Assembly: GCF_000981805.1 (NCBI RefSeq)
Contig: NZ_CP011132.1
Coordinates: 5,224,805-5,248,804, forward strand
Source of the DNA: Citrobacter amalonaticus Y19
GTDB taxonomy: Bacteria; Pseudomonadota; Gammaproteobacteria; Enterobacterales; Enterobacteriaceae
Direction: 5' to 3'
Length of the DNA: 24,000 nt
Position numbers and translations under genes: made by a program. Under the pieces are notes generated by a model. It did no database searches. It saw nothing but the letters and a program-made list of their open reading frames with translations, and was not told the DNA's origin. How positions within the stretch are numbered: position 1 is the stretch's first letter; the number at the start of each line of letters is the position of its first letter. Below are positions 2 to 19,765 of the stretch, piece after piece.

Positions 2-73
2 TTTGGCAACCTTCCCGAGGAAGAGGCCTGGCTGCTGTCCGTCCACTTTGAAGTCGCGAAAGACAACCTTTAA
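2..73 (+). CDS. 3' end of an upstream CDS (...FGNLPEEEAWLLSVHFEVAKDNL*), possibly a small stand-alone PRD-domain protein belonging to the downstream cluster
   Basis: Frame 2 is open from the window edge to TAA at 71-73, 11 nt before the next gene's ATG. The C-terminal 'AWLLSVHFE' resembles the conserved His-containing helix of PRD domains. Only 23 codons are visible. Confidence 0.35.
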   Translation, partial: FGNLPEEEAWLLSVHFEVAKDNL

Positions 74-84
74 GGAGTAACAAC

Positions 85-447
85 ATGGAACAGATTACAG
101 TCGTGATTGGCGATCGTCTGGGGAAAGGCCAGAAAGTGGCGGCAGGCGTCGAGAAAGCCGGTGGTCGTGCAGTGGTAGTACCGGGCGTCGCCGCGGATAT
201 GAAACTGGGGGACGTGATGAAAGCGGAAAACGCCACGTTCGGCATCTCTTTTTGCGGCAGCGGCGGCGCGGGCGCTATCACCGCACAGAACAAATACGGC
301 TACAAAGCCAAATACGGGATGCGCTCTGTGGATGAAGGCGTAACGGCGATTAACGAAGGCTGCAACGTGCTGGGCTTCGGCTTTATGGATAAAGAAGAGC
401 TCGGTGAGCGTCTGGTTCAGGCCTGGCAGAAAAAATACGGCGCGTAA
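85..447 (+). CDS. Glycine-rich SFCGS-motif protein (120 aa, soluble), function unknown
   Basis: ORF with SD (AAGGAG, 72-77) upstream of the ATG. It contains GISFCGSGGAGAITAQNK (Cys57, codon 253-255). Recognised from memory as the Gly_rich_SFCGS / 'EF_0830-AHA_3911' family. Confidence 0.85.
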   Translation: MEQITVVIGDRLGKGQKVAAGVEKAGGRAVVVPGVAADMKLGDVMKAENATFGISFCGSGGAGAITAQNKYGYKAKYGMRSVDEGVTAINEGCNVLGFGFMDKEELGERLVQAWQKKYGA

Positions 448-449
448 GT

Positions 450-749
450 ATGAAAGAACAATTCACCACAACGGTGAGAGTCACCGGTAAAGGCGAAGCC
501 AAAACGCGCGCCTTTGCCGATGCCCTGAACCACGTTCAGGCCGCGGTCATGAAGGCATCGCCGCATATTTTACTGCGTATTGAGCCACAGGATGTGCAGG
601 TTGTTCAAGCGCGGGAAGCGGTGCGCAAAGAAGCGTTTTTGTTCTTCTTTCTGCGCCGGGAACGACGCACTTACAGCGTGGAGCTGGATGTGACCGTCAA
701 CGTGACAGCCATCAATCTGGACAAGGTGGATTTTGTCTCGCAACGCTGA
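450..749 (+). CDS. Small soluble protein of unknown function (99 aa; DUF4312-like)
   Basis: The ATG lies 2 nt after the previous stop (TAAGTATG), suggesting translational coupling. No TM segments. Conserved partner of the SFCGS protein, as far as I recall. Confidence 0.75.
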   Translation: MKEQFTTTVRVTGKGEAKTRAFADALNHVQAAVMKASPHILLRIEPQDVQVVQAREAVRKEAFLFFFLRRERRTYSVELDVTVNVTAINLDKVDFVSQR

Positions 750-771
750 TTCTTGTTAAGAAGGCATAATT

Positions 772-1548
772 ATGTTCCTGATAATTTTAATAAAATCGCT
801 CATCATCGGTGCCCTCGTCGGCGTGGGTGTGGGGGCCGGGGCTGCACGCATGTTTCATGCGCCTACTACACAGGGGATGGGGGCATTTCGAACTCTGGGG
901 GAACTGAACTCCTGCGAAGGGGATCCGGCTTCTCACTTCTCGTTTGGTCTGGGCTTTTTCTTTAACGCCTGGGCCTCATCCGTTGCGGCGGGCTCGTTCA
1001 CACAGGACGTGGATCACCGCATTATTCCTAACTGGGGCGCGGCAGCGCTGATGATCAAAAACCGCAACGTCGGTGAAACGCTGCATGACCCGAAAAAGAT
1101 GGCGATTGCCTGCGGCATCATCGGCATGATCGTCGTGACCTTCCTGAACCTCACCGCCTCTTCCGTACCGGAAGCGTTGCAGGTGACCGCCGTTAAGGTA
1201 CTGGTTCCTGCGGCAAACCTGCTGGTCAACACCGTGATGCCGGTGATCTTCTGGCTGGCGGCAATCGACGCCGGTAAGAAATCGGGCTTCTGGGCAACCG
1301 TTTTCGGCGGCGCGGCGCAGTTGATCATGGGTAACGCCGTACCGGGTCTGGTGCTGGGCATCCTGATCGGTAAAGGCGTTGAAGAGAGCGGCTGGAACCA
1401 TGTGACCAAAGTGATGATGGCGGCGATTGTTCTGCTGTTCGTCCTGAGCGGCTTCTTCCGTGGCTTCGACATGAAGATGATCGAATCCTTCCACATGACC
1501 GTGCCGAACTGGCTCGAACTGATCCACAACTCGCTTAGCGGCAAATAA
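772..1548 (+). CDS. Polytopic inner-membrane protein of unknown function (258 aa; DUF4311-like)
   Basis: SD AAGAAGG upstream. Multiple Gly/Ala/Val-rich hydrophobic segments (IIGALVGVGVGAGAA, IACGIIGMIVVTFL, VMPVIFWLAAI, VLGILIG, AAIVLLFVLSGFF). Confidence 0.85.
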   Translation: MFLIILIKSLIIGALVGVGVGAGAARMFHAPTTQGMGAFRTLGELNSCEGDPASHFSFGLGFFFNAWASSVAAGSFTQDVDHRIIPNWGAAALMIKNRNVGETLHDPKKMAIACGIIGMIVVTFLNLTASSVPEALQVTAVKVLVPAANLLVNTVMPVIFWLAAIDAGKKSGFWATVFGGAAQLIMGNAVPGLVLGILIGKGVEESGWNHVTKVMMAAIVLLFVLSGFFRGFDMKMIESFHMTVPNWLELIHNSLSGK

Positions 1549-1559
1549 CGGAGGCCACA

Positions 1560-2204
1560 ATGGAACAGAATAAAGGTTTTTGGTTTGCCGACTGGTCGTT
1601 CCCGATCTTCGTTGGCTTGCTCTCCTCCGGCGTGTTTGCCGGGACGCACATGTACTACCTGTACGGGATTGGCGCGTTCAACGAAGTGGCTTTCGTGGCC
1701 ATGCTGAAAGCGGGAATTGATACCGGATCGTACGGCGCGGTGGCGGCGTTTGGCGCCAGCTTCCTGTTCGCCCGTATTATCGAAGGTTCTCTGGTGGGGA
1801 TTCTGGATATCGGCGGCGCGATTCAGACCGGCGTGGGTCTGGGGGTTCCGGCGCTGCTGCTGGGCGCGGGCATTATGTTCCCGGTTGAGAACTTTATCGC
1901 TTCTCTGGCTACGGGGCTGGCGATTGGTCTGGCGATCGGTTACGTCATCATTCTGGCGCGTAAGTTCACCATCAATCAAAGTGATTCGACCTACGGGGCG
2001 GACGTGATGATGGGGGCCGGTAACGCCTCGGGGCGTTTCCTTGGCCCATTGATCATCCTCAGTGCGATGACGGCGTCGATCCCTATCGGTGTGGGTTCTT
2101 TGGTTGGCGCACTGCTGTTTTACATCTGGCAGAAACCGATCACCGGCGGCGCGATCCTTGGCGCAATGATTTTAGGTTCAATCTTCCCGATTGCCATTAG
2201 CTAA
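1560..2204 (+). CDS. Polytopic inner-membrane protein of unknown function (214 aa; DUF4310-like)
   Basis: SD GGAGG 6 nt upstream of the ATG. Hydrophobic Gly-rich segments run throughout (FVGLLSSGVFAG, GVGLGVPALLLGAGIMF, LATGLAIGLAIGYVIIL, GAILGAMILGSIF). Confidence 0.85.
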   Translation: MEQNKGFWFADWSFPIFVGLLSSGVFAGTHMYYLYGIGAFNEVAFVAMLKAGIDTGSYGAVAAFGASFLFARIIEGSLVGILDIGGAIQTGVGLGVPALLLGAGIMFPVENFIASLATGLAIGLAIGYVIILARKFTINQSDSTYGADVMMGAGNASGRFLGPLIILSAMTASIPIGVGSLVGALLFYIWQKPITGGAILGAMILGSIFPIAIS

Positions 2205-2211
2205 CCCCCCG

Positions 2212-2231
2212 GCGGGCGTGAAAACGCCCGC
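2212..2231 (+). other. Intercistronic GC-rich stem-loop between the membrane-protein module and the enzyme module
   Basis: GCGGGCG-TGAAAA-CGCCCGC: a 7-bp perfect stem and 6-nt loop with no downstream T-tract. It lies 8 nt after the stop at 2204 and 18 nt before the ATG at 2249. Confidence 0.45.
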
Positions 2232-2248
2232 ACTAACAGGAGAGAGAC

Positions 2249-3382
2249 ATGTTTGATTTACTCCTGCGCCGTGCGCGTCTGGTTGACGATACGGTTTGTG
2301 ACATCGCCCTGAAGGACGGCAAAATCGCCGCGTTAGGCGAGATAAACGACCCGGCGGTGAAAACCGTTGAGCTCAACGGCGAGTGTTACGTCAGCGCCGG
2401 ATGGATTGATTCCCACGTTCACTGCTATCCAAACTCCCCGATTTATCACGACGAACCGGACAGCGTAGGCATTGCCACCGGCGTGACCACCGTTGTGGAT
2501 GCGGGCAGCACCGGTGCCGACGATATTGATGATTTCTATACCCTTACGCGCGAAGCTGCGACGGAAGTCTATGCGCTACTGAATATCTCCCGTGTCGGAT
2601 TGATTGCACAAAACGAGCTGGCGAACATGGCCAACATCGACGCCGACGCGGTGAAGCAGGCGGTAAAACGTTACCCCGATTTTATCGTTGGCCTGAAGGC
2701 GCGAATGAGCAGCAGCGTGGTGGGTGAAAATGGCATTACACCGCTGGATCGCGCGAAAGCGATGCAGCAAGAGAACGGTGATTTTCCCCTGATGGTCCAC
2801 ATCGGCAATAACCCGCCGGATTTGGATGAGATTGCGGAGCGCCTGACGGCGGGCGATATCATCACCCACTGCTACAACGGAAAACCCAATCGTATCCTGA
2901 CGCCGGAAGGCGAACTGCGCGCCTCGGTCACCCGGGCGATTCAACGCGGTGTGCGTCTGGATGTTGGGCACGGCACTGCCAGCCTGAGTTTCGCGGTGGC
3001 GAAACGCGCCATCAGCTTAGGCATTCTGCCGCAGACCATCAGCTCTGATATCTATTGCCGCAACCGCATCAGCGGCCCGGTGTATTCACTGGCGAACGTG
3101 ATGTCGAAATTCCTCGCCATCGGAATGTCGCTGCCGCAGGTCATCGACTGCGTGACCGCCAATGCCGCCGATGGCTTGCGTCTGAAATCCAAAGGTCGCC
3201 TCCAGCCAGGTCTGGACGCTGACTTAACCCTCTTTACGCTAAAGCGTCAGCCAACCGTGCTGATGGATGCCGAAAATGACAGTTTGCAGGCTGAGAATCT
3301 GCTGGTGCCGCTTGCCGCAATACGTGCGGGCAAGGGCTATATGACCGAACAAGGGAGCGCGGAACATGCCTTCGATTTTTGA
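2249..3382 (+). CDS. Metal-dependent amidohydrolase / deacetylase (dihydroorotase/NagA-like superfamily), 377 aa
   Basis: SD AGGAGAG upstream. The N-terminal beta-sandwich-type start (LLRRARLVDD...DIALKDGKIAALG) is followed by WIDSHVHC, the HxH metal motif (His56/His58, 2414-2422). VDAGSTG and DVGHG motifs are typical of the superfamily. Confidence 0.85.
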   Translation: MFDLLLRRARLVDDTVCDIALKDGKIAALGEINDPAVKTVELNGECYVSAGWIDSHVHCYPNSPIYHDEPDSVGIATGVTTVVDAGSTGADDIDDFYTLTREAATEVYALLNISRVGLIAQNELANMANIDADAVKQAVKRYPDFIVGLKARMSSSVVGENGITPLDRAKAMQQENGDFPLMVHIGNNPPDLDEIAERLTAGDIITHCYNGKPNRILTPEGELRASVTRAIQRGVRLDVGHGTASLSFAVAKRAISLGILPQTISSDIYCRNRISGPVYSLANVMSKFLAIGMSLPQVIDCVTANAADGLRLKSKGRLQPGLDADLTLFTLKRQPTVLMDAENDSLQAENLLVPLAAIRAGKGYMTEQGSAEHAFDF

Positions 3383-4484
3383 GAAATACCATTTAAAGCA
3401 GGTTATTAATACCTCCGGACGTATGACGGCGCTGGGCGTTTCTACGCCGCGCCCGGAAGTGGTGGAAGCGGCGATGGCCGGCATGAACCAGTACTTTGAA
3501 ATGAAAGATCTGGTGAATAAAACCGGGGAATACATCGCGACGCTGCTGGATGTGGAAGGGGCGACAGTGGTCTCCTGTGCGTCGGCGGGTATCGCCCAGT
3601 CGGTGGCTGCCGTGCTGGTTCAGGACAGCGACTGGCTGTTGGAAAACCTGCACGTCACGCCGATTGAAAATAACGAAATCGTGCTGCCGAGAGGCCATAA
3701 CGTCAACTTTGGTGCGCCGGTCGGCACGATGGTGGCGCTGGGCGGCGGCAAGCTGGTGGAAGCGGGTTATGCCAATGAATGTTCTGCTGCACAGCTGGCT
3801 GCGGCGATCACCCCGCGTACGGCGGCGATCCTGTACATCAAATCCCACCACTGCGTGCAGAAAAGCATGCTCAGCGTTGAGCAGGCTGTCGTGGTGGCGC
3901 GTAAACATAATCTGCCGCTGATTGTCGATGCGGCAGCGGAAGAAGATCTGCAGTGCTACTACCGTTCCGGCGCGGATCTGGTGATCTACAGCGGTGCGAA
4001 GGCCATTGAAGGGCCAACCAGCGGACTGGTCATCGGTAAAACGCAGTATGTCGAGTGGGTGAAACGCCAGACTGCGGGCATTGGCCGGGCGATGAAGGTC
4101 GGCAAAGAGGGGATTCTTGGCCTGACCTGCGCCATTGAACTCTATCTGCATGCGCAGAAAGAGAGCGGCGCGGAGATGGTGGAAAAAATGACGCCGTTTA
4201 TTGACGCGCTGAATGCGCTCAACGGGGTGACCGCTCGCGTGGTGTGGGACAGCGCCGGACGGGATATCGCCCGTGCAGAAATTAAGTTCGATGAAGCCGT
4301 TACCGGCATCGCGACGGGTGAACTGGTGGACGCGCTCAAGCAGGGCGAATACGCAATTTACTTCCGTGGCTACAAAGCCAACGAAGGGATTATTGAAGCG
4401 GATGTGCGCAGCGTAGACCGCGCACAGCTGGACATTGTGGCGCGCCGTATCGGTGACGTGATTAATCAGGAGAAACAAGCATGA
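3366..4484 (+). CDS. SelA-like PLP-dependent enzyme (DgaE-like; candidate aminosugar-acid-phosphate ammonia-lyase/dehydratase), 372 aa
   Basis: 17-nt overlap with the previous gene. The motif YSGAKAIEGPTSG matches the SelA-family PLP-lysine loop (SGDK..GGPQ.G), placing it at Lys212 (codon 3999-4001). The N-terminal 'KQVINTSGRMTALG' is typical of the family. Confidence 0.8.
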   Translation: MPSIFEKYHLKQVINTSGRMTALGVSTPRPEVVEAAMAGMNQYFEMKDLVNKTGEYIATLLDVEGATVVSCASAGIAQSVAAVLVQDSDWLLENLHVTPIENNEIVLPRGHNVNFGAPVGTMVALGGGKLVEAGYANECSAAQLAAAITPRTAAILYIKSHHCVQKSMLSVEQAVVVARKHNLPLIVDAAAEEDLQCYYRSGADLVIYSGAKAIEGPTSGLVIGKTQYVEWVKRQTAGIGRAMKVGKEGILGLTCAIELYLHAQKESGAEMVEKMTPFIDALNALNGVTARVVWDSAGRDIARAEIKFDEAVTGIATGELVDALKQGEYAIYFRGYKANEGIIEADVRSVDRAQLDIVARRIGDVINQEKQA

Positions 4485-5221
4485 AACTGACCCCGAACTT
4501 TTACCGCGATCGCGTCTGCCTGAATGTACTGGCCGGCTCGAAAGAGAACGCTCGTGATATTTACGACGCGGCGGAAGGTCATGTGCTGGTCGGCGTGCTC
4601 TCCAAAAATTACCCGGATGTCGAAAGCGCCGTGGCGGATATGCGTGACTACGCGACGCTTATCAACAACGCGCTCTCTGTCGGGCTGGGCGCGGGCGATC
4701 CGAACCAGTCGGCGATGGTCAGTGAAATCTCCCGCCAGGTTCAGCCGCAGCACGTCAACCAGGTGTTCACCGGCGTGGCAACCAGTCGCGCCCTGCTCGG
4801 GCAGAGTGAGACGGTGGTTAACGGTCTGGTATCGCCAACCGGTACGCCGGGTCTGGTGAAAATTTCCACCGGACCGTTGAGCTGCAAAGCGGCGGACGGC
4901 ATTGTCCCGGTCGAAACGGCTATCGCATTGCTGAAAGATATGGGCGGTAGTTCGATCAAATACTTCCCGATGGGCGGTCTGAAATGCCGTGACGAATATA
5001 AAGCGGTGGCTGAGGCCTGTGCGCGTCATGATTTCTGGCTGGAACCGACCGGTGGGATCGATCTGGAAAACTATGCTGAGATTTTGCAAATTGCCCTCGA
5101 CGCGGGCGTCAGTAAAATCATTCCTCACATTTATAGTTCTATTATTGATAAGGTAAATGGGAACACCCGTCCGGATGATGTGCGCCAGCTGCTTGCGCTG
5201 ACCCGGGCGTGTGTAGGTTAA
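4481..5221 (+). CDS. KDGP-aldolase family protein (DgaF-like 2-dehydro-3-deoxy-phosphogluconate aldolase), 246 aa
   Basis: ATGA start/stop overlap with the upstream gene. Recognised by similarity to DgaF / the 'EF_0839' KDGP aldolase family (e.g. IKYFPMGGL, LEPTGGID). Confidence 0.75.
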   Translation: MKLTPNFYRDRVCLNVLAGSKENARDIYDAAEGHVLVGVLSKNYPDVESAVADMRDYATLINNALSVGLGAGDPNQSAMVSEISRQVQPQHVNQVFTGVATSRALLGQSETVVNGLVSPTGTPGLVKISTGPLSCKAADGIVPVETAIALLKDMGGSSIKYFPMGGLKCRDEYKAVAEACARHDFWLEPTGGIDLENYAEILQIALDAGVSKIIPHIYSSIIDKVNGNTRPDDVRQLLALTRACVG

Positions 5222-5239
5222 AAAAACGAGGAGAGTGAT

Positions 5240-7150
5240 GTGCGATTCCCCAACCAACGTTTGGCGCAACTGTTTACTATGTTGCAAAACGAGACGCTGC
5301 CACAGGATGAGCTGGCGCAGCGGTTGTCGGTTTCCACACGTACTGTTCGTGCCGATATTACTGCGCTCAACGCCCTGCTGACTCAGCACGGCGCGCAGTT
5401 TATCCTCAGCCGGGGCAACGGTTATCAGCTCAGGATCGATGACCCGGCAAGCTATCAGTCCCTGCAATCGCAGCAGCCCAGCGCGCTGCGAATTCCGCGA
5501 ACCAGTCATGAACGCGTGCACTATCTGATGGTGCGCTTTCTGACATCCGCCTTTTCTCTCAAACTCGAAGATTTAGCTGATGAATGGTTTGTCAGTCGGG
5601 CGACGTTACAGAACGACATGGCGGAAGTGCGCGAATGGCTGCAACGCTATCATCTGACGCTGGAAACGCGCCCGCGCCACGGTATGAAACTGTTCGGCAG
5701 CGAGATGGCGATCCGCGCCTGTCTGACCGATCTGCTCTGGACCCTGGCGCAGCAGGATCCTGCTAATCCGCTGGTGACCGAAGAGGCGCTGTATGCCGGT
5801 GTGCCGTCGCAGCTTCAACCTCTCCTTGAGGAGATCTTCAACCGCTTCCATATTCGCCTTACCGACGAAGGCGAGCTGTTTTTGCGTCTGTACTGCGCGG
5901 TCGCGGTACGCCGCATCAGCGAAGGGTATCCGCTGTCGGAGTTCACCACCGAAGAGGTGGAAGAGAACGTGTGCCTGGCGGCGCGTGAGATTGCTGCTGT
6001 GGTGCAGCATCTGGCAAATCATCCGCTTTCGGTGTCAGAAGAGAACTGGCTGAAGGTGCATATCGCGGCGCGGCAGGTGCAGGAGATTGCCCCCAGCGCG
6101 ATCAATGCCGACGACGAGGAAGCGCTGGTCAATTACATCCTGCGGTTTATCAACAGCCAGTACAACTATAACCTGTTGAATGATAAACAGCTTCATGCGG
6201 ATTTACTCACTCACATCAAAACGATGATCACCCGGGTGCGCTATCAGATAATGATCCCGAACCCGCTGCTGGAGAACATCAAGCAGCACTATCCAATGGC
6301 ATGGGATATGACCCTGGCGGCGGTTTCCAGTTGGGGCAAATACACCCCTTACGCCATCAGCGAAAATGAGATCGGCTTTCTGGTGTTGCACATCGGCGTT
6401 GGGCTTGAACGTAGTTACAACATCGGTTACCAACGGCAGCCAAAAGTCCTGCTGGTTTGTGACGCGGGAAATGCGATGGTGCGGATGATTGAAGCGGTAC
6501 TGGCGCGTAAATATCCGCAGATTGAAATTGTGCATACGCTGACGCTGCGCGATTATGAACAGCGCGAGAGTATCGCGGAGGACTTTGTGATCGCCACTGC
6601 GCGGATCGGTGAGAAAGACAAACCGGTCGTGCAAATAGCCCCGTTCCCCACCGATTATCAGCTGGAACAGATTGGTAAATTGGTGCTGGTGGACAGAACC
6701 CGTCCGTGGATGCTGAACAAATACTTTGATGCCGCGCATTTTCGTATTATCGACGGCGAAATGGACCAGCAGACGCTGTTTAAAACCTTGTGCGATCAGT
6801 TGCAGAGTGAAGGGTTTGTCGATGCGGAATTCCTCGACTCGGTGGTCGAGCGTGAGGCGATCGTCAGCACAATGCTCGGTGACAGCATTGCGCTGCCGCA
6901 CGCCCTCGGACTGCTGGCGAAAAAAACGGTGGTCTATACGGTGCTCGCCCCACAGGGCATCGCCTGGGGTGACGAAACCGCACACGTGATCTTTTTACTC
7001 GCGATCAGTAAAAGCGAGTACGAAGAGGCAATGGCTATCTACGATATCTTCGTCACTTTCCTGCGTGAACGCGCGATGACGCGACTGTGCGGTAGCCAAA
7101 ACTTCGCCGAGTTTAAAGCGGTAGCGATGGAGTGCGTGAGTCGTTTTTGA
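5240..7150 (+). CDS. PRD-domain transcriptional regulator with N-terminal wHTH, two PRDs, an EIIB(Gat)-like domain and a C-terminal PTS EIIA(Mtl/Fru)-type domain (MtlR/LicR/ManR class), 636 aa
   Basis: GTG start with SD GAGGAGA (5229-5235).
- wHTH: ELAQRLSVSTRTVRADITALN.
- PRD-type His helices: WLKVHIAARQ, LLTHIKTMITR, FLVLHIGVGL.
- EIIB-like: KVLLVCDAGNAM (Cys407, 6458-6460).
- EIIA-2 active-site-like: GDSIALPHALG (His554, 6899-6901). Confidence 0.85.
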   Translation: MRFPNQRLAQLFTMLQNETLPQDELAQRLSVSTRTVRADITALNALLTQHGAQFILSRGNGYQLRIDDPASYQSLQSQQPSALRIPRTSHERVHYLMVRFLTSAFSLKLEDLADEWFVSRATLQNDMAEVREWLQRYHLTLETRPRHGMKLFGSEMAIRACLTDLLWTLAQQDPANPLVTEEALYAGVPSQLQPLLEEIFNRFHIRLTDEGELFLRLYCAVAVRRISEGYPLSEFTTEEVEENVCLAAREIAAVVQHLANHPLSVSEENWLKVHIAARQVQEIAPSAINADDEEALVNYILRFINSQYNYNLLNDKQLHADLLTHIKTMITRVRYQIMIPNPLLENIKQHYPMAWDMTLAAVSSWGKYTPYAISENEIGFLVLHIGVGLERSYNIGYQRQPKVLLVCDAGNAMVRMIEAVLARKYPQIEIVHTLTLRDYEQRESIAEDFVIATARIGEKDKPVVQIAPFPTDYQLEQIGKLVLVDRTRPWMLNKYFDAAHFRIIDGEMDQQTLFKTLCDQLQSEGFVDAEFLDSVVEREAIVSTMLGDSIALPHALGLLAKKTVVYTVLAPQGIAWGDETAHVIFLLAISKSEYEEAMAIYDIFVTFLRERAMTRLCGSQNFAEFKAVAMECVSRF

Positions 7151-7170: not shown

Positions 7171-7205
7171 ATGTAATGCAGATGTAATGCTATAATGCAT
7201 TACAT
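7171..7205 (+). promoter_or_regulatory. relBE-type promoter/operator: repeated ATGTAATGC motifs and a 9-bp perfect inverted repeat flanking a TATAAT -10 box
   Basis: ATGTAATGC occurs at 7171-7179 and 7182-7190, TATAAT at 7191-7196, and GCATTACAT (the reverse complement) at 7197-7205. This sits 23 nt upstream of the antitoxin ATG. Confidence 0.6.
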
Positions 7206-7227
7206 TTCTTTTTTCTCTGGAGGCATA

Positions 7228-7470
7228 ATGGCCACACTTAACGTCCGTCTGGATGACAAACTCAAAAACGAGGCGTATGCCGTGCTGGAAAAACTCAATA
7301 TTACGCCTACTGAAGCGGTAAGACTGCTGTTTCAGTATGTGGCTGAAAATGGACGCATGCCGATAAAGACACTCACTGTCAGTGATAGCGAAGAAGCGTT
7401 ATTGCGTACTGTCAGGGAGCGACTGGCCGATCCGCAAGAGGCCATTAAGGTCAGACTGGATGCGCTATGA
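7228..7470 (+). CDS. relB: RelB-family antitoxin (ribbon-helix-helix), 80 aa
   Basis: MATLNVRLDDKLKNEAYAVLEKLNITPTEAVRLLFQYVAENGRMP... aligns along its length with E. coli RelB (MGSINLRIDDELKARSYAALEKMGVTPSEALRLMLEYIADNERLP...). SD GGAGG lies 6 nt upstream of the ATG at 7228. The tracked ORF start at 7195 has no SD. Confidence 0.85.
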   Translation: MATLNVRLDDKLKNEAYAVLEKLNITPTEAVRLLFQYVAENGRMPIKTLTVSDSEEALLRTVRERLADPQEAIKVRLDAL

Positions 7471-7751
7471 ACTGGCGTTTGATCCGCGAGCGCTGAAGGA
7501 ATGGCAAAAGTTGGGTGAAACGGTGAAAAACCAGTTCAGGAAGAAACTGGCTGAGGTGCTTTTACATCCACGGCTCCCCTCCGCCCGGCTTCATGACTTT
7601 CCTGATTGCTACAAGATAAAACTCAAGGCGTCAGGCTTCAGGCTGGTTTATCAGGTGAAGGACGCACAGATTCTGGTATTGGTGATTGCGATCGGTAATC
7701 GGTAAACGGGAAAAATCGGCCGTTTATCAGGAAGCTGACAAACGGCTTTGA
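7460..7751 (+). pseudogene. relE: RelE/StbE-family mRNA-interferase toxin, frameshifted by a 7-bp tandem duplication. The ORF as written stops at 7705 (81 aa); the intact reading would end at 7751 (94 aa).
   Basis: MRYELAFDPRALKEWQKLGETVKNQFRKKLAEVL...PDCYKIKLKASGFRLVYQV matches E. coli RelE. Its ATG overlaps the antitoxin stop by 11 nt. The +1 frame after 7701 reads GKREKSAVYQEADKRL*, which matches the RelE C-terminus GKRERSEVYSEAVKRIL. Confidence 0.8.
7691..7704 (+). repeat. Perfect 7-bp tandem duplication ATCGGTA-ATCGGTA inside the relE-like gene
   Basis: Read directly: gcg ATCGGTA ATCGGTA aacggg. Deleting one copy restores ...VIAIGKREKSAVYQEADKRL*. Confidence 0.9.
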
Positions 7752-7759
7752 CGGGGACG

Positions 7760-8224
7760 TTACCGCAAATGGTGCACAACCTGGTTGCTGCTGCCGCGCC
7801 AGATCAGCGCCGGGTCTTTCAGATCCTGCACATACTTACCGTCGACCAGCACGTTGATGAGATCCACAACCTGCATTTGCGCGGCATTGAGTTCATCTAG
7901 CTTATAGCCGGTCCACACCCAGATATCTTTGCCCGCACATTCAGCGTGAATGCGTTGCACCAGTTTCAGAATATCCGGTACGTTCTGCGGATGAAGCGGA
8001 TCGCCGCCGGAAAGGGAGATCCCCTGGCGGTGGATCCGTGTATCGTTCAGATCGTTAATGATCTGGTCTTCCATTTCTTTCGTGAACGGTTGGCCTGAAT
8101 TGAGTCGCCAGGTGCTTTTGTTGTAGCAGCCAGGACATTCGTGCACGCACCCTGAAACAAACAGGGTGCAGCGAGTTCCGGGGCCATTAACGATGTCGAC
8201 AGGATAATATTGATGGTAATTCAT
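7760..8224 (-). CDS. nrdG: Anaerobic ribonucleoside-triphosphate reductase activating protein (radical SAM), 154 aa
   Basis: MNYHQYYPVDIVNGPGTRCTLFVSGCVHECPGCYNKSTW... is near-identical to E. coli NrdG. The start is taken at the Met preceded by AGGAAAA, not at the 5-codon longer ORF start. Confidence 0.95.
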   Translation of the reverse strand: MNYHQYYPVDIVNGPGTRCTLFVSGCVHECPGCYNKSTWRLNSGQPFTKEMEDQIINDLNDTRIHRQGISLSGGDPLHPQNVPDILKLVQRIHAECAGKDIWVWTGYKLDELNAAQMQVVDLINVLVDGKYVQDLKDPALIWRGSSNQVVHHLR

Positions 8225-8239
8225 TTTTCCTCGTTGCAT

Positions 8240-8346
8240 TTGGCGCTGTAGCGGTGCTGGCCGCTCTCACTCTCCCGGGTCACTTACTTATGTAAGCTCC
8301 CCTGGATTCGTTCGTTTGCCGCCTTGCTACAACACCAACTGCTTAG
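8240..8346. repeat. ERIC (IRU) enterobacterial repetitive intergenic consensus element
   Basis: Contains ATGTAAGCTCCCCTGGATTCG (compare ERIC1R primer ATGTAAGCTCCTGGGGATTCAC) and CGCTCTCACTCTCCCGGGTCACTTACTT (compare the reverse complement of ERIC2, CGCTCACCCCAGTCACTTACTT). Confidence 0.8.
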
Positions 8347-8384
8347 AGGAAAACCACGACATTGGAACTATAGCGAGCGGTAGT

Positions 8385-8465
8385 AGGCCGGATAAGGTGC
8401 TTGCACCGCCATCCGGCAACATTGTGATACCTGATGGCGACGCGATTGCGTCTTATCAGGCCTAC
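8385..8465. repeat. Two REP (palindromic unit) elements forming a BIME-like pair
   Basis: AGGCCGGATAAGGTGCTTGCACCGCCATCCGGCA (8385-8418) and ACCTGATGGCGACGCGATTGCGTCTTATCAGGCCTAC (8429-8465). Both are imperfect palindromes with the classic GCCGGATAAGG / CTTATCAGGCCTAC REP signatures. Confidence 0.85.
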
Positions 8466-8483
8466 GGCCTTTGCAAACGAAAA

Positions 8484-10622: not shown

Positions 10623-10649
10623 GATCACTCCATAATTTGTAAGAACAGG

Positions 10650-12686: not shown

Positions 12687-12733
12687 AGTCATTTCCTGGT
12701 TATGCGAGGGGCGCAAGTGCGCCCCGAATAAAA

Positions 12734-14155
12734 TCAGACAATCTGTAACGTGCCCTGACGGTATTTACGCTGGTAGACCACGGAGGTCAGCACGATCGGG
12801 ATGACAATGGCGATCGCCATCGCGACGGCGTAAACCTGCCAGTAAGTCGGTTGGATGGAGAGGATGCCCGGTAAGCCGCCGACGCCGATGCCGTTGGCCA
12901 TCACCCCGTACAGACCACAGAGCAGCCCGGCAAGGCCGGAGCCGATCATCGCGCAGAGCATCGGGAAGCGGTATTTCAGGTTGATACCGTACATTGCCGG
13001 CTCGGTGACCCCCAGATAGGCGGAGATCGCGGCAGGAACGGAGATCTCGCGTTCGTTCTGTTTACGGCTGGCGATAATAATGCCCACCACCGCAGAAGCC
13101 TGCGCGATGTTGGAAAGGGCAATCAGCGGCCATACCGGGGTTCCCCCCATGCTCTGGATCATCTGCATATCAATGGCGAGCGTGGTCTGATGCACGCCGG
13201 TAATCACCAACGGGGCGTACAGGAAGCCGAACAGCGCCGCGCCAATCGGGGCGAAGCTGCCGGTCATCAGATGGCGAACCGCAAACGCCACGCCGTCGCC
13301 AATCAAGCGGCCAAACGGGCCGATCAGCGCATGAGCGAGGAAGACCGCGAGGATCAATGAACAGACCGGCACCACAACGAGGTAGAGGTAATCCGGCACC
13401 ATGCGTTTCAGGCGCGTTTCAATCATGCCCAGCGCCAGACCGGCCAGCAGTGCCGGAATGACCTGTGCCTGATAGCCCACTTTCGCGATGGTGAACAGGC
13501 CGAAGTTCCACACCTCCGGTACCTGTTGCCCCAGCAGATACGCGTTCATCAACTGTGGCGATACCAGCGTGACGCCAAGCACGATGCCGAGGATCGGCGT
13601 GCCGCCCATTTTTTTCACCGCTGACCAGCAGATGCCCACCGGCAGATAGAAGAAGATGGCTTCGCCAATTAGCCACAGGAAGTCATAAATCGTTTTCAGC
13701 GCCGGATACATCTGCGCCAGCGTCTGGCCGTTGCTCATCGGCAGGTCGCCAATGACGTTACGAAAACCTAAAATCAAGCCCCCGCTGATCAGCGCCGGCA
13801 GCAGCGGGAAGAAGATTTCAGCGAAGTGGGAAATGAGCTGTTCATGCCATTTCATGTTCTGGCGAGCCGCTTTTTTCGCCTGCTCTTTATCGGCGTGCGC
13901 CTGTCCGGTGGTCGCCAGCAGCGCCTTGTAGTAATCGCCGACCTCGGTGCCAATCACCACCTGGAACTGACCGGCGTTGGTAAAGCAGCCTTTGACCATC
14001 GGCAACTCTTCGATTTCCTTCGGTCTGGCGTTTGCTGGCTGATTCAGCACAAAGCGCAGGCGCGTAATACAGTGACTCACTGTGGCGATATTCTCTCGCC
14101 CGCCTACCAGCGCTATCAGCCGGTCAATATCCGCTTGTTTAACTTTGCTCATCAT
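12734..14155 (-). CDS. treB: PTS trehalose-specific EIIBC component, 473 aa
   Basis: MMSKVKQADIDRLIALVGGRENIATVSHCITRLRFVLNQPANARPKEIE... contains the EIIB Cys motif (HCITRLR) and a polytopic EIIC domain. Near-identical to E. coli TreB. Confidence 0.95.
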   Translation of the reverse strand: MMSKVKQADIDRLIALVGGRENIATVSHCITRLRFVLNQPANARPKEIEELPMVKGCFTNAGQFQVVIGTEVGDYYKALLATTGQAHADKEQAKKAARQNMKWHEQLISHFAEIFFPLLPALISGGLILGFRNVIGDLPMSNGQTLAQMYPALKTIYDFLWLIGEAIFFYLPVGICWSAVKKMGGTPILGIVLGVTLVSPQLMNAYLLGQQVPEVWNFGLFTIAKVGYQAQVIPALLAGLALGMIETRLKRMVPDYLYLVVVPVCSLILAVFLAHALIGPFGRLIGDGVAFAVRHLMTGSFAPIGAALFGFLYAPLVITGVHQTTLAIDMQMIQSMGGTPVWPLIALSNIAQASAVVGIIIASRKQNEREISVPAAISAYLGVTEPAMYGINLKYRFPMLCAMIGSGLAGLLCGLYGVMANGIGVGGLPGILSIQPTYWQVYAVAMAIAIVIPIVLTSVVYQRKYRQGTLQIV

Positions 14156-14207
14156 GAAGCCTCGTGGCGATGACTGTGAAAAGGGGGTTGTTATGCGATG
14201 GGCTCAG

Positions 14208-14247: not shown

Positions 14248-14298
14248 GAAACGCAGCGAAGATCACAAATTATCGTTCAGAAAGCGATCAGCAATGAT

Positions 14299-19761: not shown

Positions 19762-19765
19762 TTCA

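What the first reader, a model, noticed from the sequence alone, without database searches (positions are those of the whole stretch)
2..7150. PRD-regulated catabolic cluster with four uncharacterised proteins (SFCGS, small soluble, two membrane) where a PTS EIIABCD would be expected
Seen in the sequence: at least 9 same-strand genes are separated by 2-44 nt or overlap (17-nt overlap at 3366-3382, ATGA overlap at 4481-4484), and the starts I checked are preceded by SD-like sequences. The gene order is:
- a PRD-like C-terminus
- a 120-aa Gly-rich soluble protein with an SFCGSGGAG loop
- a 99-aa soluble protein
- 258-aa and 214-aa Gly/Ala-rich polytopic membrane proteins
- a metallo-amidohydrolase (HxH)
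- a SelA-like PLP enzyme (Lys212 loop)
- a KDGP-aldolase-family protein
- an HTH/PRD/EIIB/EIIA regulator

Established knowledge: in S. Typhimurium dgaABCDEF, the SelA-like DgaE converts D-glucosaminate-6-P to KDPG and DgaF cleaves it. The four genes upstream of dgaE/F are mannose-family EIIA, B, C and D. PRD regulators are switched by PTS phosphoryl transfer.

From memory, the first four proteins here belong to the Gly_rich_SFCGS, DUF4312, DUF4311 and DUF4310 families. These form a conserved neighbourhood first flagged as 'EF_0829-EF_0839 / AHA_3910-3917'. I know of no experimental function for them.

Inference: the two-soluble plus two-membrane module sits exactly where EIIA-B-C-D sit in dga, and no canonical permease is present. 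It may therefore be a non-canonical, possibly phosphoryl-transfer-coupled, uptake system feeding an aminosugar-acid-type pathway.
Basis: partly seen in the sequence, partly recalled or inferred. Interest (0 to 1): 0.88.

Follow-up and report, generated by a model that had tools for sequence, protein, structure and literature searches.

The report
Possible new PTS-type sugar-acid uptake module
A conserved nine-gene operon pairs three amino-sugar-acid-phosphate enzymes with five uncharacterised proteins, and comparative genomics indicates these five take phosphate from the bacterial sugar-phosphotransferase relay, so they may be a new, untested kind of sugar import machine.

Summary

New evidence on function:
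- **Phosphorylated substrate.** The DgaE-like enzyme keeps the three arginines that hold the 6-phosphate in Salmonella DgaE. They are invariant in 15 diverse clusters, and no kinase is conserved in the cluster.
- **Link to the PTS.** HPr or HPr-Enzyme I genes lie in or beside the cluster in 6 of 14 non-enteric contexts. Three of these are Actinobacteria whose regulator is IclR-type, so a PRD regulator cannot be HPr's target there.
- **Small PRD protein.** It precedes SFCGS in all 92 complete cluster loci examined and keeps an invariant His. In several Firmicutes it is naturally fused to SFCGS.
- **SFCGS.** It has an invariant Cys but an RpiB/LacAB isomerase fold, not a known EIIB fold.
- **DUF4312.** It has no conserved His or Cys, so it is not a classical EIIA.
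- **DUF4311 and DUF4310.** They match no known transporter family.

Best reading (confidence about 0.5): a PEP/HPr-dependent uptake-and-phosphorylation system of a new type, feeding an N-acyl-amino-aldonate-6-phosphate pathway. No published characterisation was found. The mechanism is untested, and an isomerase role for SFCGS remains a live rival.

The parts
2..73 (+). 3' end (23 codons plus stop) of the small stand-alone PRD protein (TIGR03582, EF_0829/AHA_3910 family). It includes the second conserved His, codon 44-46.
   Evidence: The translation FGNLPEEEAWLLSVHFEVAKDNL* is identical to the C-terminus of L001:8964-9299, which scores 137.8 bits on TIGR03582. His50 and Arg57 are invariant in 9 sequences, including E. 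coli YhfY. The protein lies directly upstream of SFCGS, or is fused to it, in every other cluster locus of the survey.
85..447 (+). SFCGS protein (120 aa). It has an RpiB/LacAB-like five-stranded alpha/beta fold, with invariant Cys57-Gly-Ser59 at the end of strand 3. It is proposed to be a Cys phosphocarrier (EIIB-equivalent). The rival reading is an isomerase.
   Evidence: PF14272 200.9 bits and TIGR03577 225.6 bits. Cys57 is invariant in 17 diverse sequences. AlphaFold pLDDT is 89-97. The top 44 Foldseek hits against the PDB are all RpiB/LacAB/DhuI-type proteins (E = 3e-6, probability 1.0). Natural PRD-SFCGS fusions exist: P0281, P0278, P0283, P0317, P0308.
450..749 (+). DUF4312 protein (99 aa), soluble, predicted beta-alpha-beta-beta. 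It has no conserved His or Cys and its role is unknown. It may be a structural or coupling subunit.
   Evidence: PF14189 114.9 bits and TIGR03578 140.3 bits. Conservation analysis. The model has only pLDDT 54-71. No PDB sequence hit.
772..1548 (+). DUF4311 polytopic membrane protein (258 aa), with a very conserved polar-rich segment (residues 26-90; R40, E44, N46, H55, D79, R83 invariant and H82 nearly so). It is proposed to be half of the translocator.
   Evidence: PF14188 407.9 bits and TIGR03580 522.4 bits. It is 67-73% identical to the Enterococcus, Brevibacillus and Bartonella copies. AlphaFold pLDDT is about 85-95, all-helical. No PDB fold or sequence match.
1560..2204 (+). DUF4310 polytopic membrane protein (214 aa). 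It may be a distant paralogue of DUF4311 and is proposed to be the second half of the translocator.
   Evidence: PF14187 360 bits and TIGR03579 394.2 bits. hhalign against DUF4311 gives E = 5e-4, probability 31%, colinear over 161 columns. The model is poor (pLDDT below 50) because only 5 homologues could be supplied. No PDB or Pfam remote hit.
2249..3382 (+). Amidohydrolase/deacetylase-family metallohydrolase (EF_0837 / STM4445 family, cog3964). It is inferred to N-deacylate the phosphorylated amino-aldonate.
   Evidence: TIGR03583 588.1 bits. 710 bits to PDB 8WZY (deposited as 'Dihydroorotase') and 362 bits to 2ICS.
3366..4484 (+). DgaE-family PLP-dependent ammonia-lyase. It is inferred to convert a 2-amino-2-deoxy-aldonate 6-phosphate into a 2-keto-3-deoxy-aldonate 6-phosphate plus NH3.
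   Evidence: TIGR01437 605.9 bits. The DgaE equivalog NF047797 scores 376.9 bits, below its cut-off of 600. 295.7 bits to the Salmonella enzyme 7LC0. K212, H161/H162 and the phosphate-cluster residues R303/R334/R348 (DGL Arg301/332/346, PMC9529869) are conserved. K212, H162 and the three arginines are invariant in all 15 diverse clusters; H161 in 14 of 15.
4481..5221 (+). KDGP (DgaF-type) aldolase. It is inferred to cleave the 2-keto-3-deoxy-6-phospho-aldonate into pyruvate and glyceraldehyde 3-phosphate.
   Evidence: PF07071 366.7 bits. NF047796 scores 389.7 bits, above its cut-off of 300. 478 bits to PDB 3M0Z. It is replaced by an Eda-type aldolase (PF01081) in two actinobacterial clusters.
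5240..7150 (+). MtlR/LicR-type PRD-containing transcription regulator: HTH_11, Mga, 2 x PRD, a putative EIIB(Gat)-like segment with Cys407, and an EIIA(Mtl/Fru)-like domain with His554.
   Evidence: Pfam PF08279, PF05043, PF00874 (two stretches) and PF00359. The EIIB-like segment gives no HMM hit. The motifs KVLLVC407DAG and IALPH554A were read from the sequence.

Best explanation
The operon encodes a self-contained catabolic pathway for an N-acylated 2-amino-2-deoxy-aldonic acid. This is a D-glucosaminate-type sugar acid; N-acetyl-D-glucosaminate from oxidised chitin is one candidate. Its first five genes form a new kind of PEP-dependent (PTS-type) uptake-and-phosphorylation module.

**Proposed steps.**
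1. PEP passes its phosphoryl group to Enzyme I and then to HPr (general PTS proteins).
2. HPr~P phosphorylates the invariant His50 of the small stand-alone PRD protein, which stands in for an EIIA.
3. The phosphoryl group passes to the invariant Cys57 of the SFCGS protein. SFCGS is an RpiB-fold protein used here as an EIIB-equivalent.
4. The substrate enters through the DUF4311/DUF4310 membrane pair and leaves as the 6-phosphate. DUF4312 acts as a non-phosphorylated coupling subunit.
5. The amidohydrolase removes the N-acyl group.
6. The DgaE-like lyase makes a 2-keto-3-deoxy-6-phospho-aldonate plus ammonia.
7. The aldolase gives pyruvate and glyceraldehyde 3-phosphate.

The MtlR-like regulator reads the phosphorylation state of the relay.

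**Shown here:** gene content and order, family memberships, folds, conserved residues, natural fusions and genomic linkage to HPr/EI.

**Inferred:** every phosphotransfer step, the transport role of the membrane pair, and the identity of the substrate.
For: **1. The substrate must be a 6-phosphate.**
- The DgaE-like enzyme keeps the PLP lysine, the His pair and all three arginines that bind the 6-phosphate in Salmonella DgaE (PMC9529869). The lysine, one His of the pair and the three arginines are invariant in all 15 cluster enzymes from four phyla; the other His in 14 of 15.
- The aldolase passes the DgaF equivalog cut-off. In Actinobacteria it is replaced by the non-homologous Eda KDPG aldolase.
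- In Entomoplasma the regulator is an RpiR/SIS type; that type is known to sense sugar phosphates (my knowledge).
- No kinase is conserved in the cluster. This holds even in the 838-kb Entomoplasma genome and on a 55-kb Bartonella plasmid.

**2. General PTS proteins travel with the cluster.**
- HPr-EI fusion genes lie next to it in two Alphaproteobacteria.
- HPr genes with the canonical GLHARPA site lie inside it in Streptomyces, Cryobacterium, an actinobacterial metagenome contig and Lacrimispora.
- In the three Actinobacteria the regulator is IclR-type. The only PRD left for HPr to act on is therefore the small PRD protein of the module.

**3. The small PRD protein belongs to the module.**
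- It is present directly upstream of SFCGS, or fused to it, in all 92 other cluster loci of the survey.
- It keeps an invariant His and Arg.
- It is naturally fused to SFCGS in at least five divergent Firmicutes sequences. This mirrors the PRD plus EIIB-like arrangement of MtlR/LicR regulators.

**4. SFCGS has a plausible phospho-acceptor.** It has an invariant Cys at a strand-loop-helix junction in a confidently modelled alpha/beta fold.

**5. The regulator implies a cognate EII.** It carries EIIA-like His554 and a Cys407 motif. In this regulator class (from my knowledge of MtlR/ManR/LicR) that implies control by a cognate EII, and this module is the only candidate in the operon.

**6. The membrane pair is always present, always adjacent and extremely conserved**.
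Against: - The closest fold of SFCGS is an enzyme. All 44 significant Foldseek hits are RpiB/LacAB/DhuI-type isomerases, and no PTS EIIB appears in the top 50. Its Cys-Gly-Ser aligns with the catalytic Cys66-Gly-Thr68 of E. coli RpiB. It could simply be an isomerase.
- DUF4312 has no conserved phosphorylatable residue, and its role is a guess.
- The membrane proteins resemble no EIIC or any other transporter. A transport role therefore rests only on hydrophobicity and context. The DUF4310 model is unreliable.
- HPr or EI is embedded in only 6 of 14 non-enteric contexts and could serve regulation rather than catalysis.
- The E. faecalis and E. faecium versions carry an additional canonical EIIC gene. 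E. faecalis also has an adjacent PfkB kinase, which offers other routes to a phosphorylated intermediate there.
- A stand-alone PRD acting as a phosphocarrier has no precedent that I know of.
- There are no experimental data.
Confidence: 0.5

Rival explanations
1. Enzyme-plus-carrier reading. SFCGS is a genuine RpiB/LacAB-type isomerase or epimerase acting on a pathway intermediate. DUF4311/DUF4310 is an ordinary ion-coupled secondary carrier. The phosphate comes from an ATP-dependent kinase encoded elsewhere. HPr and the small PRD protein only regulate transport or transcription, in the manner of inducer exclusion or LacS-type control.
For: - The fold is RpiB/LacAB with probability 1.0, and the Cys-x-Ser/Thr catalytic pair is aligned.
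- RpiB appears as a weak hit in Pfam and NCBIfam.
- A PfkB kinase lies next to the E. faecalis cluster and near the Pectinatus one.
- HPr is embedded in fewer than half of the non-enteric contexts.
Against: - SFCGS lacks the C-terminal helix that carries the phosphate-binding Arg133/His134/Arg137 of RpiB. At the position of His99 it has a non-conserved Asn or Arg.
- It scores below the LacAB_rpiB gathering threshold (16.6 against 24.7 bits).
- From deacylation through elimination to aldol cleavage, no step needs an aldose-ketose isomerase.
- I know of no precedent for an isomerase naturally fused to a PRD domain.
- No kinase is conserved in the cluster, even in a minimal genome and on a small plasmid.
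- Alphaproteobacteria acquire HPr-EI together with the cluster.
Confidence: 0.22
2. Split reading, on the model of dihydroxyacetone kinase. DUF4311/DUF4310 only lets the substrate in. The soluble trio (small PRD, SFCGS, DUF4312) is a cytoplasmic PTS-dependent kinase that uses HPr~P instead of ATP. SFCGS binds the sugar acid in its RpiB-like pocket.
For: - It rests on the same PTS linkage and phosphate requirement as the main explanation.
- The RpiB fold is a known sugar-phosphate-binding scaffold.
- The E. faecalis variant has an extra EIIC and a MupG-like 6-phospho-glycosidase. That pair would release an unphosphorylated sugar acid inside the cell, which would then need a cytoplasmic kinase.
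- By my knowledge, DhaKLM sets a precedent for a PTS-driven soluble kinase.
Against: - The soluble and membrane genes are never separated in any of the loci examined. This argues for one complex.
- No homology to DhaK, DhaL or DhaM was detected for any component.
Confidence: 0.18
3. The five proteins are not a transport system at all. They could be a membrane-bound sensor or an enzyme complex, for example a signal-transducing unit that controls the regulator, with the substrate entering by an unrelated permease.
For: - DUF4311 has an unusually conserved polar segment with invariant His, Asp, Arg and Glu residues, more like an active site than a typical carrier.
- There is no similarity to any known transporter.
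Against: - The module is retained with three different regulator types: PRD-type, IclR and RpiR. It is therefore not an accessory of one regulator.
- No other permease is conserved in the cluster, although a polar anionic substrate must cross the membrane.
- The module is retained in a minimal Mollicute genome.
Confidence: 0.07

Closest known systems
Salmonella dgaABCDEF (D-glucosaminate PTS permease of the mannose family plus DgaE and DgaF; Miller et al. 2013, from my knowledge, cited in PMC7396535 and PMC9529869)
   Same: - It uses the same two downstream enzymes. The DgaE-family lyase scores 295.7 bits with catalytic and phosphate-binding residues conserved. The DgaF-type aldolase is above the equivalog cut-off.
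- The operon logic is the same: a block with two soluble and two membrane proteins directly upstream of the enzymes.
- The pathway substrate is phosphorylated.
   Different: - The four or five upstream proteins share no detectable homology with EIIA/B/C/D-Man.
- This cluster adds an amidohydrolase, which implies an N-acylated or otherwise masked substrate.
- The regulator is PRD/EIIA-type, whereas dgaR is a sigma-54 activator (my knowledge).
- The lyase falls below the DgaE equivalog cut-off (376.9 against 600 bits). The substrate is therefore probably related but not identical.
Canonical PTS Enzyme II complexes with a His-His-Cys relay (Glc, Mtl/Fru, Lac/Chb, Gat and Asc families)
   Same: - Genetic dependence on EI and HPr.
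- A candidate chain HPr-His, then His on a small soluble protein, then an invariant Cys on a small alpha/beta protein, then a membrane component.
- A PRD/EIIA-type regulator in the same operon.
   Different: - None of the components belongs to a known EIIA, EIIB or EIIC family.
- The candidate 'EIIA' is a PRD domain.
- The candidate 'EIIB' has an RpiB fold, with the Cys after strand 3 rather than strand 1.
- The membrane part is two small proteins with no EIIC signature.
- There is an extra soluble subunit (DUF4312) with no phosphorylatable residue.
RpiB/LacAB sugar-phosphate isomerases (e.g. E. coli RpiB 2VVR, M. genitalium RpiB 6MU0, LacAB 4LFK, DhuI 4U8F)
   Same: - SFCGS shares the five-stranded parallel alpha/beta fold: TM-score normalised to the target 0.55-0.69, rmsd about 3.3-3.9 Å over about 125 residues.
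- The Cys-Gly-Ser/Thr motif sits at the same loop.
   Different: - SFCGS is about 30 residues shorter and lacks the C-terminal helix with the phosphate-binding residues.
- The His99 equivalent is not conserved.
- Sequence identity is 15-20%, and the score is below the Pfam gathering threshold.
- It always sits next to, or is fused with, a PRD domain and two membrane proteins.
E. coli K-12 yhfZ-yhfY-yhfX-yhfW-php-yhfU-yhfT-yhfS operon (uncharacterised)
   Same: - It has a parallel architecture: a small stand-alone PRD protein (YhfY), a ~117-aa soluble protein with a Cys-Gly-rich loop (YhfU, 'IGACNTGAGAA'), a polytopic membrane protein (YhfT), an amidohydrolase-superfamily enzyme (Php) and PLP enzymes.
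- YhfY aligns with the small PRD protein across the invariant His and Arg (hhalign E = 1e-3; alignment).
   Different: - Similarity of YhfU to SFCGS (E = 0.24-0.3) and of YhfT to DUF4311 (E = 0.012-0.03) is not significant.
- The enzymes differ.
- This system is also uncharacterised, so it explains nothing yet.
Oxidative chitin pathway of Pseudoalteromonas (OngB deacetylase, OngC deaminase, KdgK; PMC9537276, PMC12017989)
   Same: The chemistry follows the same logic: an N-acetyl-amino-aldonate (GlcNAc1A) is deacetylated, deaminated to a 2-keto-3-deoxy acid and fed into the Entner-Doudoroff aldolase step.
   Different: - That route runs on unphosphorylated intermediates, with phosphorylation last by KdgK.
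- By my knowledge it uses non-orthologous enzymes and an ordinary inner-membrane transporter.
- Here the lyase is built for a 6-phosphate, so phosphorylation must come first.
- The substrate assignment for the present cluster is only my inference.

Membership tests
TIGRFAM/Pfam 'EF_0829-EF_0839 / AHA_3910-3917' conserved neighbourhood | Each protein scores above the curated cut-off of TIGR03582, 03577, 03578, 03580, 03579, 03583 and 03581, and of PF14272, PF14189, PF14188 and PF14187 | tested here: met
   All scores are above their cut-offs.
PEP:carbohydrate phosphotransferase system (as a functional class) | Functional or genetic dependence on Enzyme I and HPr | tested here: met
   This is genetic linkage only. 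HPr-EI fusions or HPr genes lie in or beside the cluster in 6 of 14 independent non-enteric contexts. Three of these have no PRD-type regulator. The biochemistry was not tested.
PEP:carbohydrate phosphotransferase system (as a functional class) | An EIIA with a conserved phosphorylatable His | tested here: inconclusive
The small PRD protein has an invariant His50, but it is not a member of any EIIA family.
PEP:carbohydrate phosphotransferase system (as a functional class) | An EIIB with a conserved phosphorylatable Cys or His, belonging to a known EIIB fold | tested here: inconclusive
   Cys57 is invariant. The fold is RpiB-like, and no EIIB appears in the Foldseek top 50.
PEP:carbohydrate phosphotransferase system (as a functional class) | A membrane component homologous to one of the seven known EIIC/EIID families | tested here: not met
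   - No Pfam EIIC/EIID hit, even at E = 10 (tested for DUF4310).
- No PDB sequence or profile hit.
- Best Foldseek E-value against the PDB is 2.1.
PEP:carbohydrate phosphotransferase system (as a functional class) | The substrate is phosphorylated concomitantly with uptake | not testable with these tools
   The evidence is indirect only. The downstream lyase keeps the 6-phosphate-binding Arg cluster, and no kinase is conserved in the cluster.
RpiB/LacAB sugar-phosphate isomerase family (PF02502) | RpiB-type fold | tested here: met
   The top 44 Foldseek hits against the PDB all belong to the family, with probability 1.0.
RpiB/LacAB sugar-phosphate isomerase family (PF02502) | Score above the Pfam gathering threshold | tested here: not met
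   16.6 bits against 24.7. NCBIfam RpiB models score 17 bits against cut-offs of 135-168.
RpiB/LacAB sugar-phosphate isomerase family (PF02502) | Catalytic Cys (or Glu) base with the neighbouring Thr | tested here: met
   C57-G-S59 aligns with C66-G-T68 of E. coli RpiB. Both residues are invariant.
RpiB/LacAB sugar-phosphate isomerase family (PF02502) | Ring-opening His99 and the C-terminal phosphate-binding Arg133/His134/Arg137 (E. coli numbering, from my knowledge) | tested here: not met
   The aligned position 90 is Asn or Arg and is not conserved. The protein ends at about RpiB residue 130.
[quoted passage not shown] | Family HMM, equivalog HMM and catalytic residues | tested here: inconclusive
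   - The family model TIGR01437 is met (605.9 bits against 385.3).
- The equivalog NF047797 is not met (376.9 bits against 600).
- The PLP Lys, the His pair and the Arg301/332/346 equivalents are conserved.

The chemistry is therefore the same, but the substrate may differ.
DgaF / KDGP aldolase | Equivalog HMM cut-off | tested here: met
   NF047796 scores 389.7 bits against 300. PF07071 scores 366.7 bits.
MtlR/LicR/ManR-type PRD-containing activators | HTH, Mga, two PRDs, an EIIB(Gat)-like domain and an EIIA(Mtl)-like domain | tested here: inconclusive
   HTH_11, Mga, 2 x PRD and EIIA_2 are met. The EIIB-like domain is not detected by HMM. Only the motif KVLLVC407DAG is present.

The most novel reading that the evidence does not exclude
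This is an eighth, previously unrecognised family of the bacterial phosphotransferase system, built from non-canonical parts:
- a stand-alone PRD domain as the HPr-accepting 'EIIA';
- an RpiB-fold protein as a phospho-cysteine 'EIIB';
- a heterodimer of two distantly related small membrane proteins (DUF4311/DUF4310) as a new 'EIIC';
- a non-phosphorylated fifth subunit (DUF4312).

The E. coli yhfY/yhfU/yhfT genes would then be a second branch of the same class.
Probability: 0.35. Interest if true: 0.9.

Novelty: new variant of a known kind. Interest (0 to 1): 0.78.

Why it matters
The PTS has been studied for sixty years, and by my knowledge its permease families are considered essentially catalogued.

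- **A new family.** A further family with unrelated EII components would show that the relay has recruited new folds: a PRD domain as a carrier and an isomerase scaffold as a phospho-Cys protein. It would also give the first function to a stand-alone PRD domain.
- **Breadth.** The module is widespread. At least 522 species-representative genomes carry it. They include Salmonella, Klebsiella, Citrobacter, Enterobacter, Yersinia, Aeromonas, Enterococcus, Listeria, Streptomyces and Mollicutes. It is absent from all 5,426 complete E. coli genomes searched.
- **Mobility.** It sits on plasmids and on a composite transposon in outbreak vancomycin-resistant E. faecium (PMC11934601).
- **Practical value.** Identifying the substrate would explain a niche-specific nutrient route in gut pathogens. 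It would also assign a function to four Pfam DUF or uncharacterised families at once.

The hypothesis is now directly testable with standard phosphotransfer assays.

Tried and rejected
2. **Modelling both membrane proteins in one chain.** I used a database read-through fusion (P0332). The DUF4311 half came out well. The DUF4310 half did not (pLDDT below 50), because my third homologue search, a concatenated divergent query, returned only DUF4311 hits and no stand-alone DUF4310. A first alignment (A5) misaligned the stand-alone DUF4310 and was discarded.
3. **The DUF4312 half of the soluble model.** It is only moderately confident, and its fold could not be searched separately.
4. **Full-library phmmer with the fused membrane pair.** It gave only family members and fragments. 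The weakest 93 hits, where remote families might sit, are not listed.
5. **Profile searches of DUF4311 and DUF4310 against the PDB, plus a relaxed (E = 10) Pfam scan of DUF4310 members.** These gave noise only.
6. **hhalign of SFCGS against YhfU and of DUF4311/DUF4310 against YhfT.** The motifs are suggestive but not significant. I therefore do not claim homology beyond the PRD proteins.
7. **Reading DUF4312 as an EIIA.** Rejected, because no His or Cys is conserved.
8. **Reading the membrane pair as ManY/ManZ-like.** Rejected for lack of any hit.
9. **Ten literature searches.** I searched on family names, accessions, and locus tags from Salmonella, E. faecalis, Aeromonas and the E. coli yhf genes. 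No functional study turned up. Subscription-only papers are not covered.
10. **Database 'fusions' from enterics** (P0270-P0276, P0284, P0300, P0016, P0018, P0039). These are frameshift, read-through or gene-caller artefacts and were not counted as evidence. Only the clean Firmicutes PRD-SFCGS fusions were counted.

Full report
**1. What is in the sequence**

The ORF table and the first 120 bases show nine + strand genes between 2 and 7150. Their coordinates are 2-73 (a 3' fragment), 85-447, 450-749, 772-1548, 1560-2204, 2249-3382, 3366-4484, 4481-5221 and 5240-7150. Spacers are 11, 2, 22, 11 and 44 nt, followed by overlaps of 17 and 4 nt and a final 18-nt spacer. Seven of the eight starts have a GGAG-type ribosome-binding site. 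Terminator-like sites within the block are no more frequent than in shuffled sequence.

- Gly_rich_SFCGS
- DUF4312
- DUF4311
- DUF4310
- an EF_0837-type amidohydrolase
- a DgaE-family PLP lyase
- a KDGP aldolase, which passes the DgaF equivalog cut-off
- a regulator with HTH_11, Mga, two PRDs and an EIIA_2 domain

Only a KVLLVC407DAG motif suggests it.

The fragment at 2-73 is the end of a stand-alone PRD protein of about 112 aa (TIGR03582), not of a large regulator.

The window's DUF4311 is 100% identical to that of Citrobacter amalonaticus. The Salmonella orthologues are probably STM4440-STM4448. No match to the locus was found in any of 5,426 complete E. coli genomes.

**2. How conserved the arrangement is**

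I examined 92 complete cluster loci in a scripted survey: 80 Enterobacteriaceae and 12 from E. faecalis, Brevibacillus, Bartonella, Entomoplasma, Koleobacter (plus a related metagenome contig), Microvirga, Streptomyces, Cryobacterium, an actinobacterial metagenome contig, Lacrimispora and Pectinatus. Three further loci (Thermoanaerobacter, Kroppenstedtia, Chromobacterium) were read from their gene calls.
- The five genes small-PRD, SFCGS, DUF4312, DUF4311 and DUF4310 are contiguous and in that order wherever they were called. A few divergent small-PRD or DUF4312 genes were missed by phmmer and picked up only by hmmsearch or by the gene calls.
- The amidohydrolase and the DgaE-like lyase always accompany them.
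- The aldolase is normally the KDGP type. It is an Eda-type (PF01081) enzyme in two Actinobacteria and is missing in one Streptomyces.
- Regulators vary: PRD/EIIA-type, IclR-type in Actinobacteria and RpiR/SIS in Entomoplasma.

The membrane protein DUF4311 is 67-73% identical between Proteobacteria, Firmicutes and a Bartonella plasmid, which is unusually high.

This is therefore one fixed pathway with one fixed five-protein module. It is not a generic transporter shuffled among pathways.

**3. The pathway needs a phosphorylated substrate and has no kinase**

[quoted passage not shown] In that enzyme, docking places the substrate's phosphate at Arg301, Arg332 and Arg346, with His162/His163 on the catalytic loop (PMC9529869).

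Mapping through the HMMER alignment, the equivalent residues here are R303, R334, R348 and H161/H162, with K212 as the PLP lysine. K212, H162 and the three arginines are invariant in 15 cluster-associated enzymes from four phyla; H161 is conserved in 14 of 15.

The aldolase is a KDPG-type enzyme by two independent routes: DgaF-type, or Eda-type where replaced.

No kinase is conserved in the cluster:
- none in the window;
- none on the 55-kb Bartonella plasmid;
- none in the 838-kb Entomoplasma genome's cluster;
- none in Brevibacillus, Microvirga, Chromobacterium, Lacrimispora, Kroppenstedtia, Thermoanaerobacter or the Actinobacteria.

A PfkB kinase lies adjacent only in E. faecalis and in a separate neighbouring operon in Pectinatus. 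The phosphate must therefore be installed before the amidohydrolase and lyase steps, and the five-protein module is the only conserved candidate.

**4. Link to the PTS**

This is the strongest new result.
- In Bartonella sp. HY406 (plasmid) and Microvirga sp. W0021, an HPr-Enzyme I fusion gene (671 and 679 aa, with all four Pfam domains) lies immediately next to the cluster. By my knowledge, Alphaproteobacteria normally lack sugar PTS permeases.
- In Streptomyces, Cryobacterium and an actinobacterial metagenome contig, an 87-91-aa HPr gene is the last gene of the operon. The same holds in Lacrimispora.
- All six carry the canonical G[L/I]HARPA phosphorylation site.
- None of the 80 enterobacterial loci has one nearby. 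This is expected, because enterics carry ptsHI elsewhere.

In the three actinobacterial loci the regulator is IclR-type. HPr therefore cannot be there to phosphorylate a PRD regulator, and the only PRD in the locus is the small PRD protein of the module.

**5. The soluble components**

*Small PRD protein.*
- It keeps an invariant His (His50 in the Citrobacter protein) and Arg57 across nine divergent sequences, including E. coli YhfY.
- A second His (His104, encoded in the window at 44-46) is conserved in most.
- In Koleobacter and at least four other divergent Firmicutes sequences, the PRD and SFCGS are one polypeptide (P0281, P0278, P0283, P0317, P0308).
- Similar 'fusions' from enterics are frameshift artefacts and were ignored.

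*SFCGS.*
- AlphaFold2 gives a confident model of the SFCGS half of the read-through fusion P0270, which is 93% identical to the window protein (pLDDT 89-97). It is a five-stranded parallel alpha/beta fold, with the invariant Cys57-Gly-Ser59 at the end of strand 3.
- Foldseek against the PDB returns 44 significant hits. All are RpiB/LacAB/DhuI-type isomerases (best E = 3e-6, probability 1.0). No PTS EIIB appears in the top 50.
- HMM searches had already pointed weakly to RpiB, and the Cys aligns with the catalytic Cys66 of E. coli RpiB.
- However, SFCGS is shorter. It lacks the C-terminal helix that carries RpiB's phosphate-binding residues, and it does not conserve the His99 position.

*DUF4312.*
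- It has no conserved His or Cys in 16 diverse sequences.
- It is modelled only at moderate confidence as beta-alpha-beta-beta.
- It cannot be a classical EIIA.

**6. The membrane components**

- DUF4311 models confidently as an all-helical polytopic protein. DUF4310 does not, because I could supply only five homologues.
- Neither protein hits any transporter family in Pfam, in PDB sequence or profile searches, or (for the model) in Foldseek against the PDB, where the best E-value was 2.1.
- Profile-profile comparison suggests the two proteins are distant paralogues: E = 5e-4, probability 31%, colinear over 161 columns, with matching GAF, FG..F and Gly-rich motifs. This would fit a pseudo-symmetric heterodimer, but it is not established.
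- DUF4311 carries a strikingly conserved polar segment (residues 26-90). R40, E44, N46, H55, D79 and R83 are invariant and H82 has one exception.

**7. Synthesis**

The most economical reading is a PTS-type system built from non-canonical parts:
1. HPr~P phosphorylates the small PRD protein on His.
2. The phosphoryl group passes to Cys57 of SFCGS.
3. The substrate is phosphorylated as it passes, or just after it passes, the DUF4311/DUF4310 pair.
4. It is then deacylated, deaminated and cleaved.

By my knowledge, PRD domains are known acceptors of phosphate from both HPr and EIIB proteins. MtlR/LicR-type regulators already combine PRDs with an EIIB-like Cys domain, so a PRD-SFCGS pair, fused in some Firmicutes, is a plausible miniature of that arrangement.

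The main weakness is that the fold and the Cys-x-Ser motif of SFCGS are those of an isomerase. I cannot exclude that it is one, with HPr and the PRD acting purely as regulators.

A third possibility is a permease plus a soluble HPr-dependent kinase, on the model of dihydroxyacetone kinase. The E. faecalis variant fits this idea. It inserts a canonical EIIC and a MupG-like 6-phospho-glycosidase, which would release an unphosphorylated sugar acid inside the cell.

**8. Substrate**

The extra amidohydrolase, compared with dgaABCDEF, implies an N-acyl (or otherwise amide-masked) derivative of a 2-amino-aldonate. N-acetyl-D-glucosaminate, the end product of LPMO-oxidised chitin, is an attractive candidate. 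A non-phosphorylated route for it is known in Pseudoalteromonas (PMC9537276). This is my inference only, and I put it at roughly one chance in four.

The amidohydrolase itself has a near-identical crystal structure, 8WZY, deposited as 'Dihydroorotase'. I found no paper for it.

**9. Prior knowledge and novelty**

The neighbourhood was flagged long ago in TIGRFAMs as a conserved hypothetical set. Ten full-text searches found no functional study:
- One paper lists STM4441-2 as 'unknown' and Crp-regulated (PMC11000858).
- An E. faecalis Tn-seq paper merely speculates about amino-sugar metabolism (PMC7701990).
- An E. faecium outbreak paper places the cluster on a composite transposon (PMC11934601).

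The E. coli yhfZYXW-php-yhfUTS operon has a parallel architecture with a homologous small PRD protein and is equally uncharacterised.

I rate the finding as a new variant of a known kind: a PTS-type system with unrelated EII parts. It is real, widespread and directly testable. Mechanistic confidence is about 0.5.

Noticed in passing
window 7195-7705 (+): Two overlapping small ORFs directly after the regulator hit RelB antitoxin (PF04221, 54.5 bits) and ParE/RelE-type toxin (PF05016, 41.3 bits). This looks like a type II toxin-antitoxin pair, and it probably corresponds to Salmonella STM4449/STM4450.
   Followed up: partly
window 15502-15616 (+), upstream of 15716-18424: The Rfam Magnesium-II riboswitch (RF01056) matches at 109.1 bits, E = 2e-21. 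It sits in the leader of a 902-aa P-type ATPase (E1-E2_ATPase, Cation_ATPase_N/C), in the style of mgtA.
   Followed up: partly
window 11031-15246 (-): This is a trehalose-type PTS locus:
- a 561-aa alpha-amylase-family enzyme (treC-like);
- a 473-aa PTS EIIB+EIIC protein (treB-like);
- a LacI-family repressor (treR-like).

The same window therefore also contains a canonical PTS permease for comparison.
   Followed up: partly
window 7760-10628 (-): ORFs of 159 aa and 714 aa look like the anaerobic ribonucleotide reductase activase and catalytic subunit (nrdG and nrdD). This is from my reading of the translations only and was not tested with HMMs.
   Followed up: no
window 18784-21649 (+): A complete TRAP transporter: DctP 250 bits, DctQ 79.8 bits and DctM 396.5 bits.
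   Followed up: partly
L081 (E. faecalis) 11620-14355; E. faecium transposon in PMC11934601: Enterococcal versions of the cluster carry extra genes. In E. faecalis a Lac/Chb-type EIIC (PF02378), a 99-aa protein with no family hit and a MupG-like 6-phospho-glycosidase are inserted between DUF4310 and the amidohydrolase, and a PfkB kinase follows. In E. faecium a fructose-type EIIC lies next to the cluster on an IS110-flanked composite transposon. This hints at a disaccharide form of the substrate.
   Followed up: partly
L084 10846-12492 (Entomoplasma freundtii); P0156, P0157, P0159, P0168: In Mollicute-like sequences, DUF4310 carries an N-terminal extension of about 330 aa. It is Lys/Asn/Glu-rich, looks like a coiled coil and has no Pfam hit. 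Another DUF4310 (P0175) has a C-terminal Big_2 domain.
   Followed up: partly
PDB 8WZY against window 2249-3382: A solved structure deposited as 'Dihydroorotase' matches the cluster's amidohydrolase over its full 377 residues at 710 bits. No paper was found for it. The name is probably a misannotation, given what is known of cog3964 (my knowledge of Ornelas et al. 2013).
   Followed up: partly
L087 4936-12345 (E. coli K-12 yhfS-yhfZ): The E. coli operon has the same building plan. It has a small PRD protein, a ~117-aa protein with a Cys-Gly-rich loop (DUF2620), a membrane protein (YhfT family), an amidohydrolase-superfamily protein (Php) and PLP enzymes. It may be a sister system, but homology beyond the PRD protein is not significant.
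   Followed up: partly
P0016, P0332, P0270-P0276, P0300: Public protein collections contain many artefactual 'fusion' proteins from this locus. They arise from read-through, frameshifts or eukaryotic gene calling. P0016 is labelled as a protein of the fungus Astraeus odoratus, which almost certainly reflects bacterial contamination of that assembly.
   Followed up: partly
L085 14500-15306; L094 11323-12123: In Koleobacter and Thermoanaerobacter, a HAD-family sugar-phosphatase-like gene (Hydrolase_3 / S6PP) directly follows the aldolase. Its role is unexplained. It might be a safety valve against sugar-phosphate stress.
   Followed up: no
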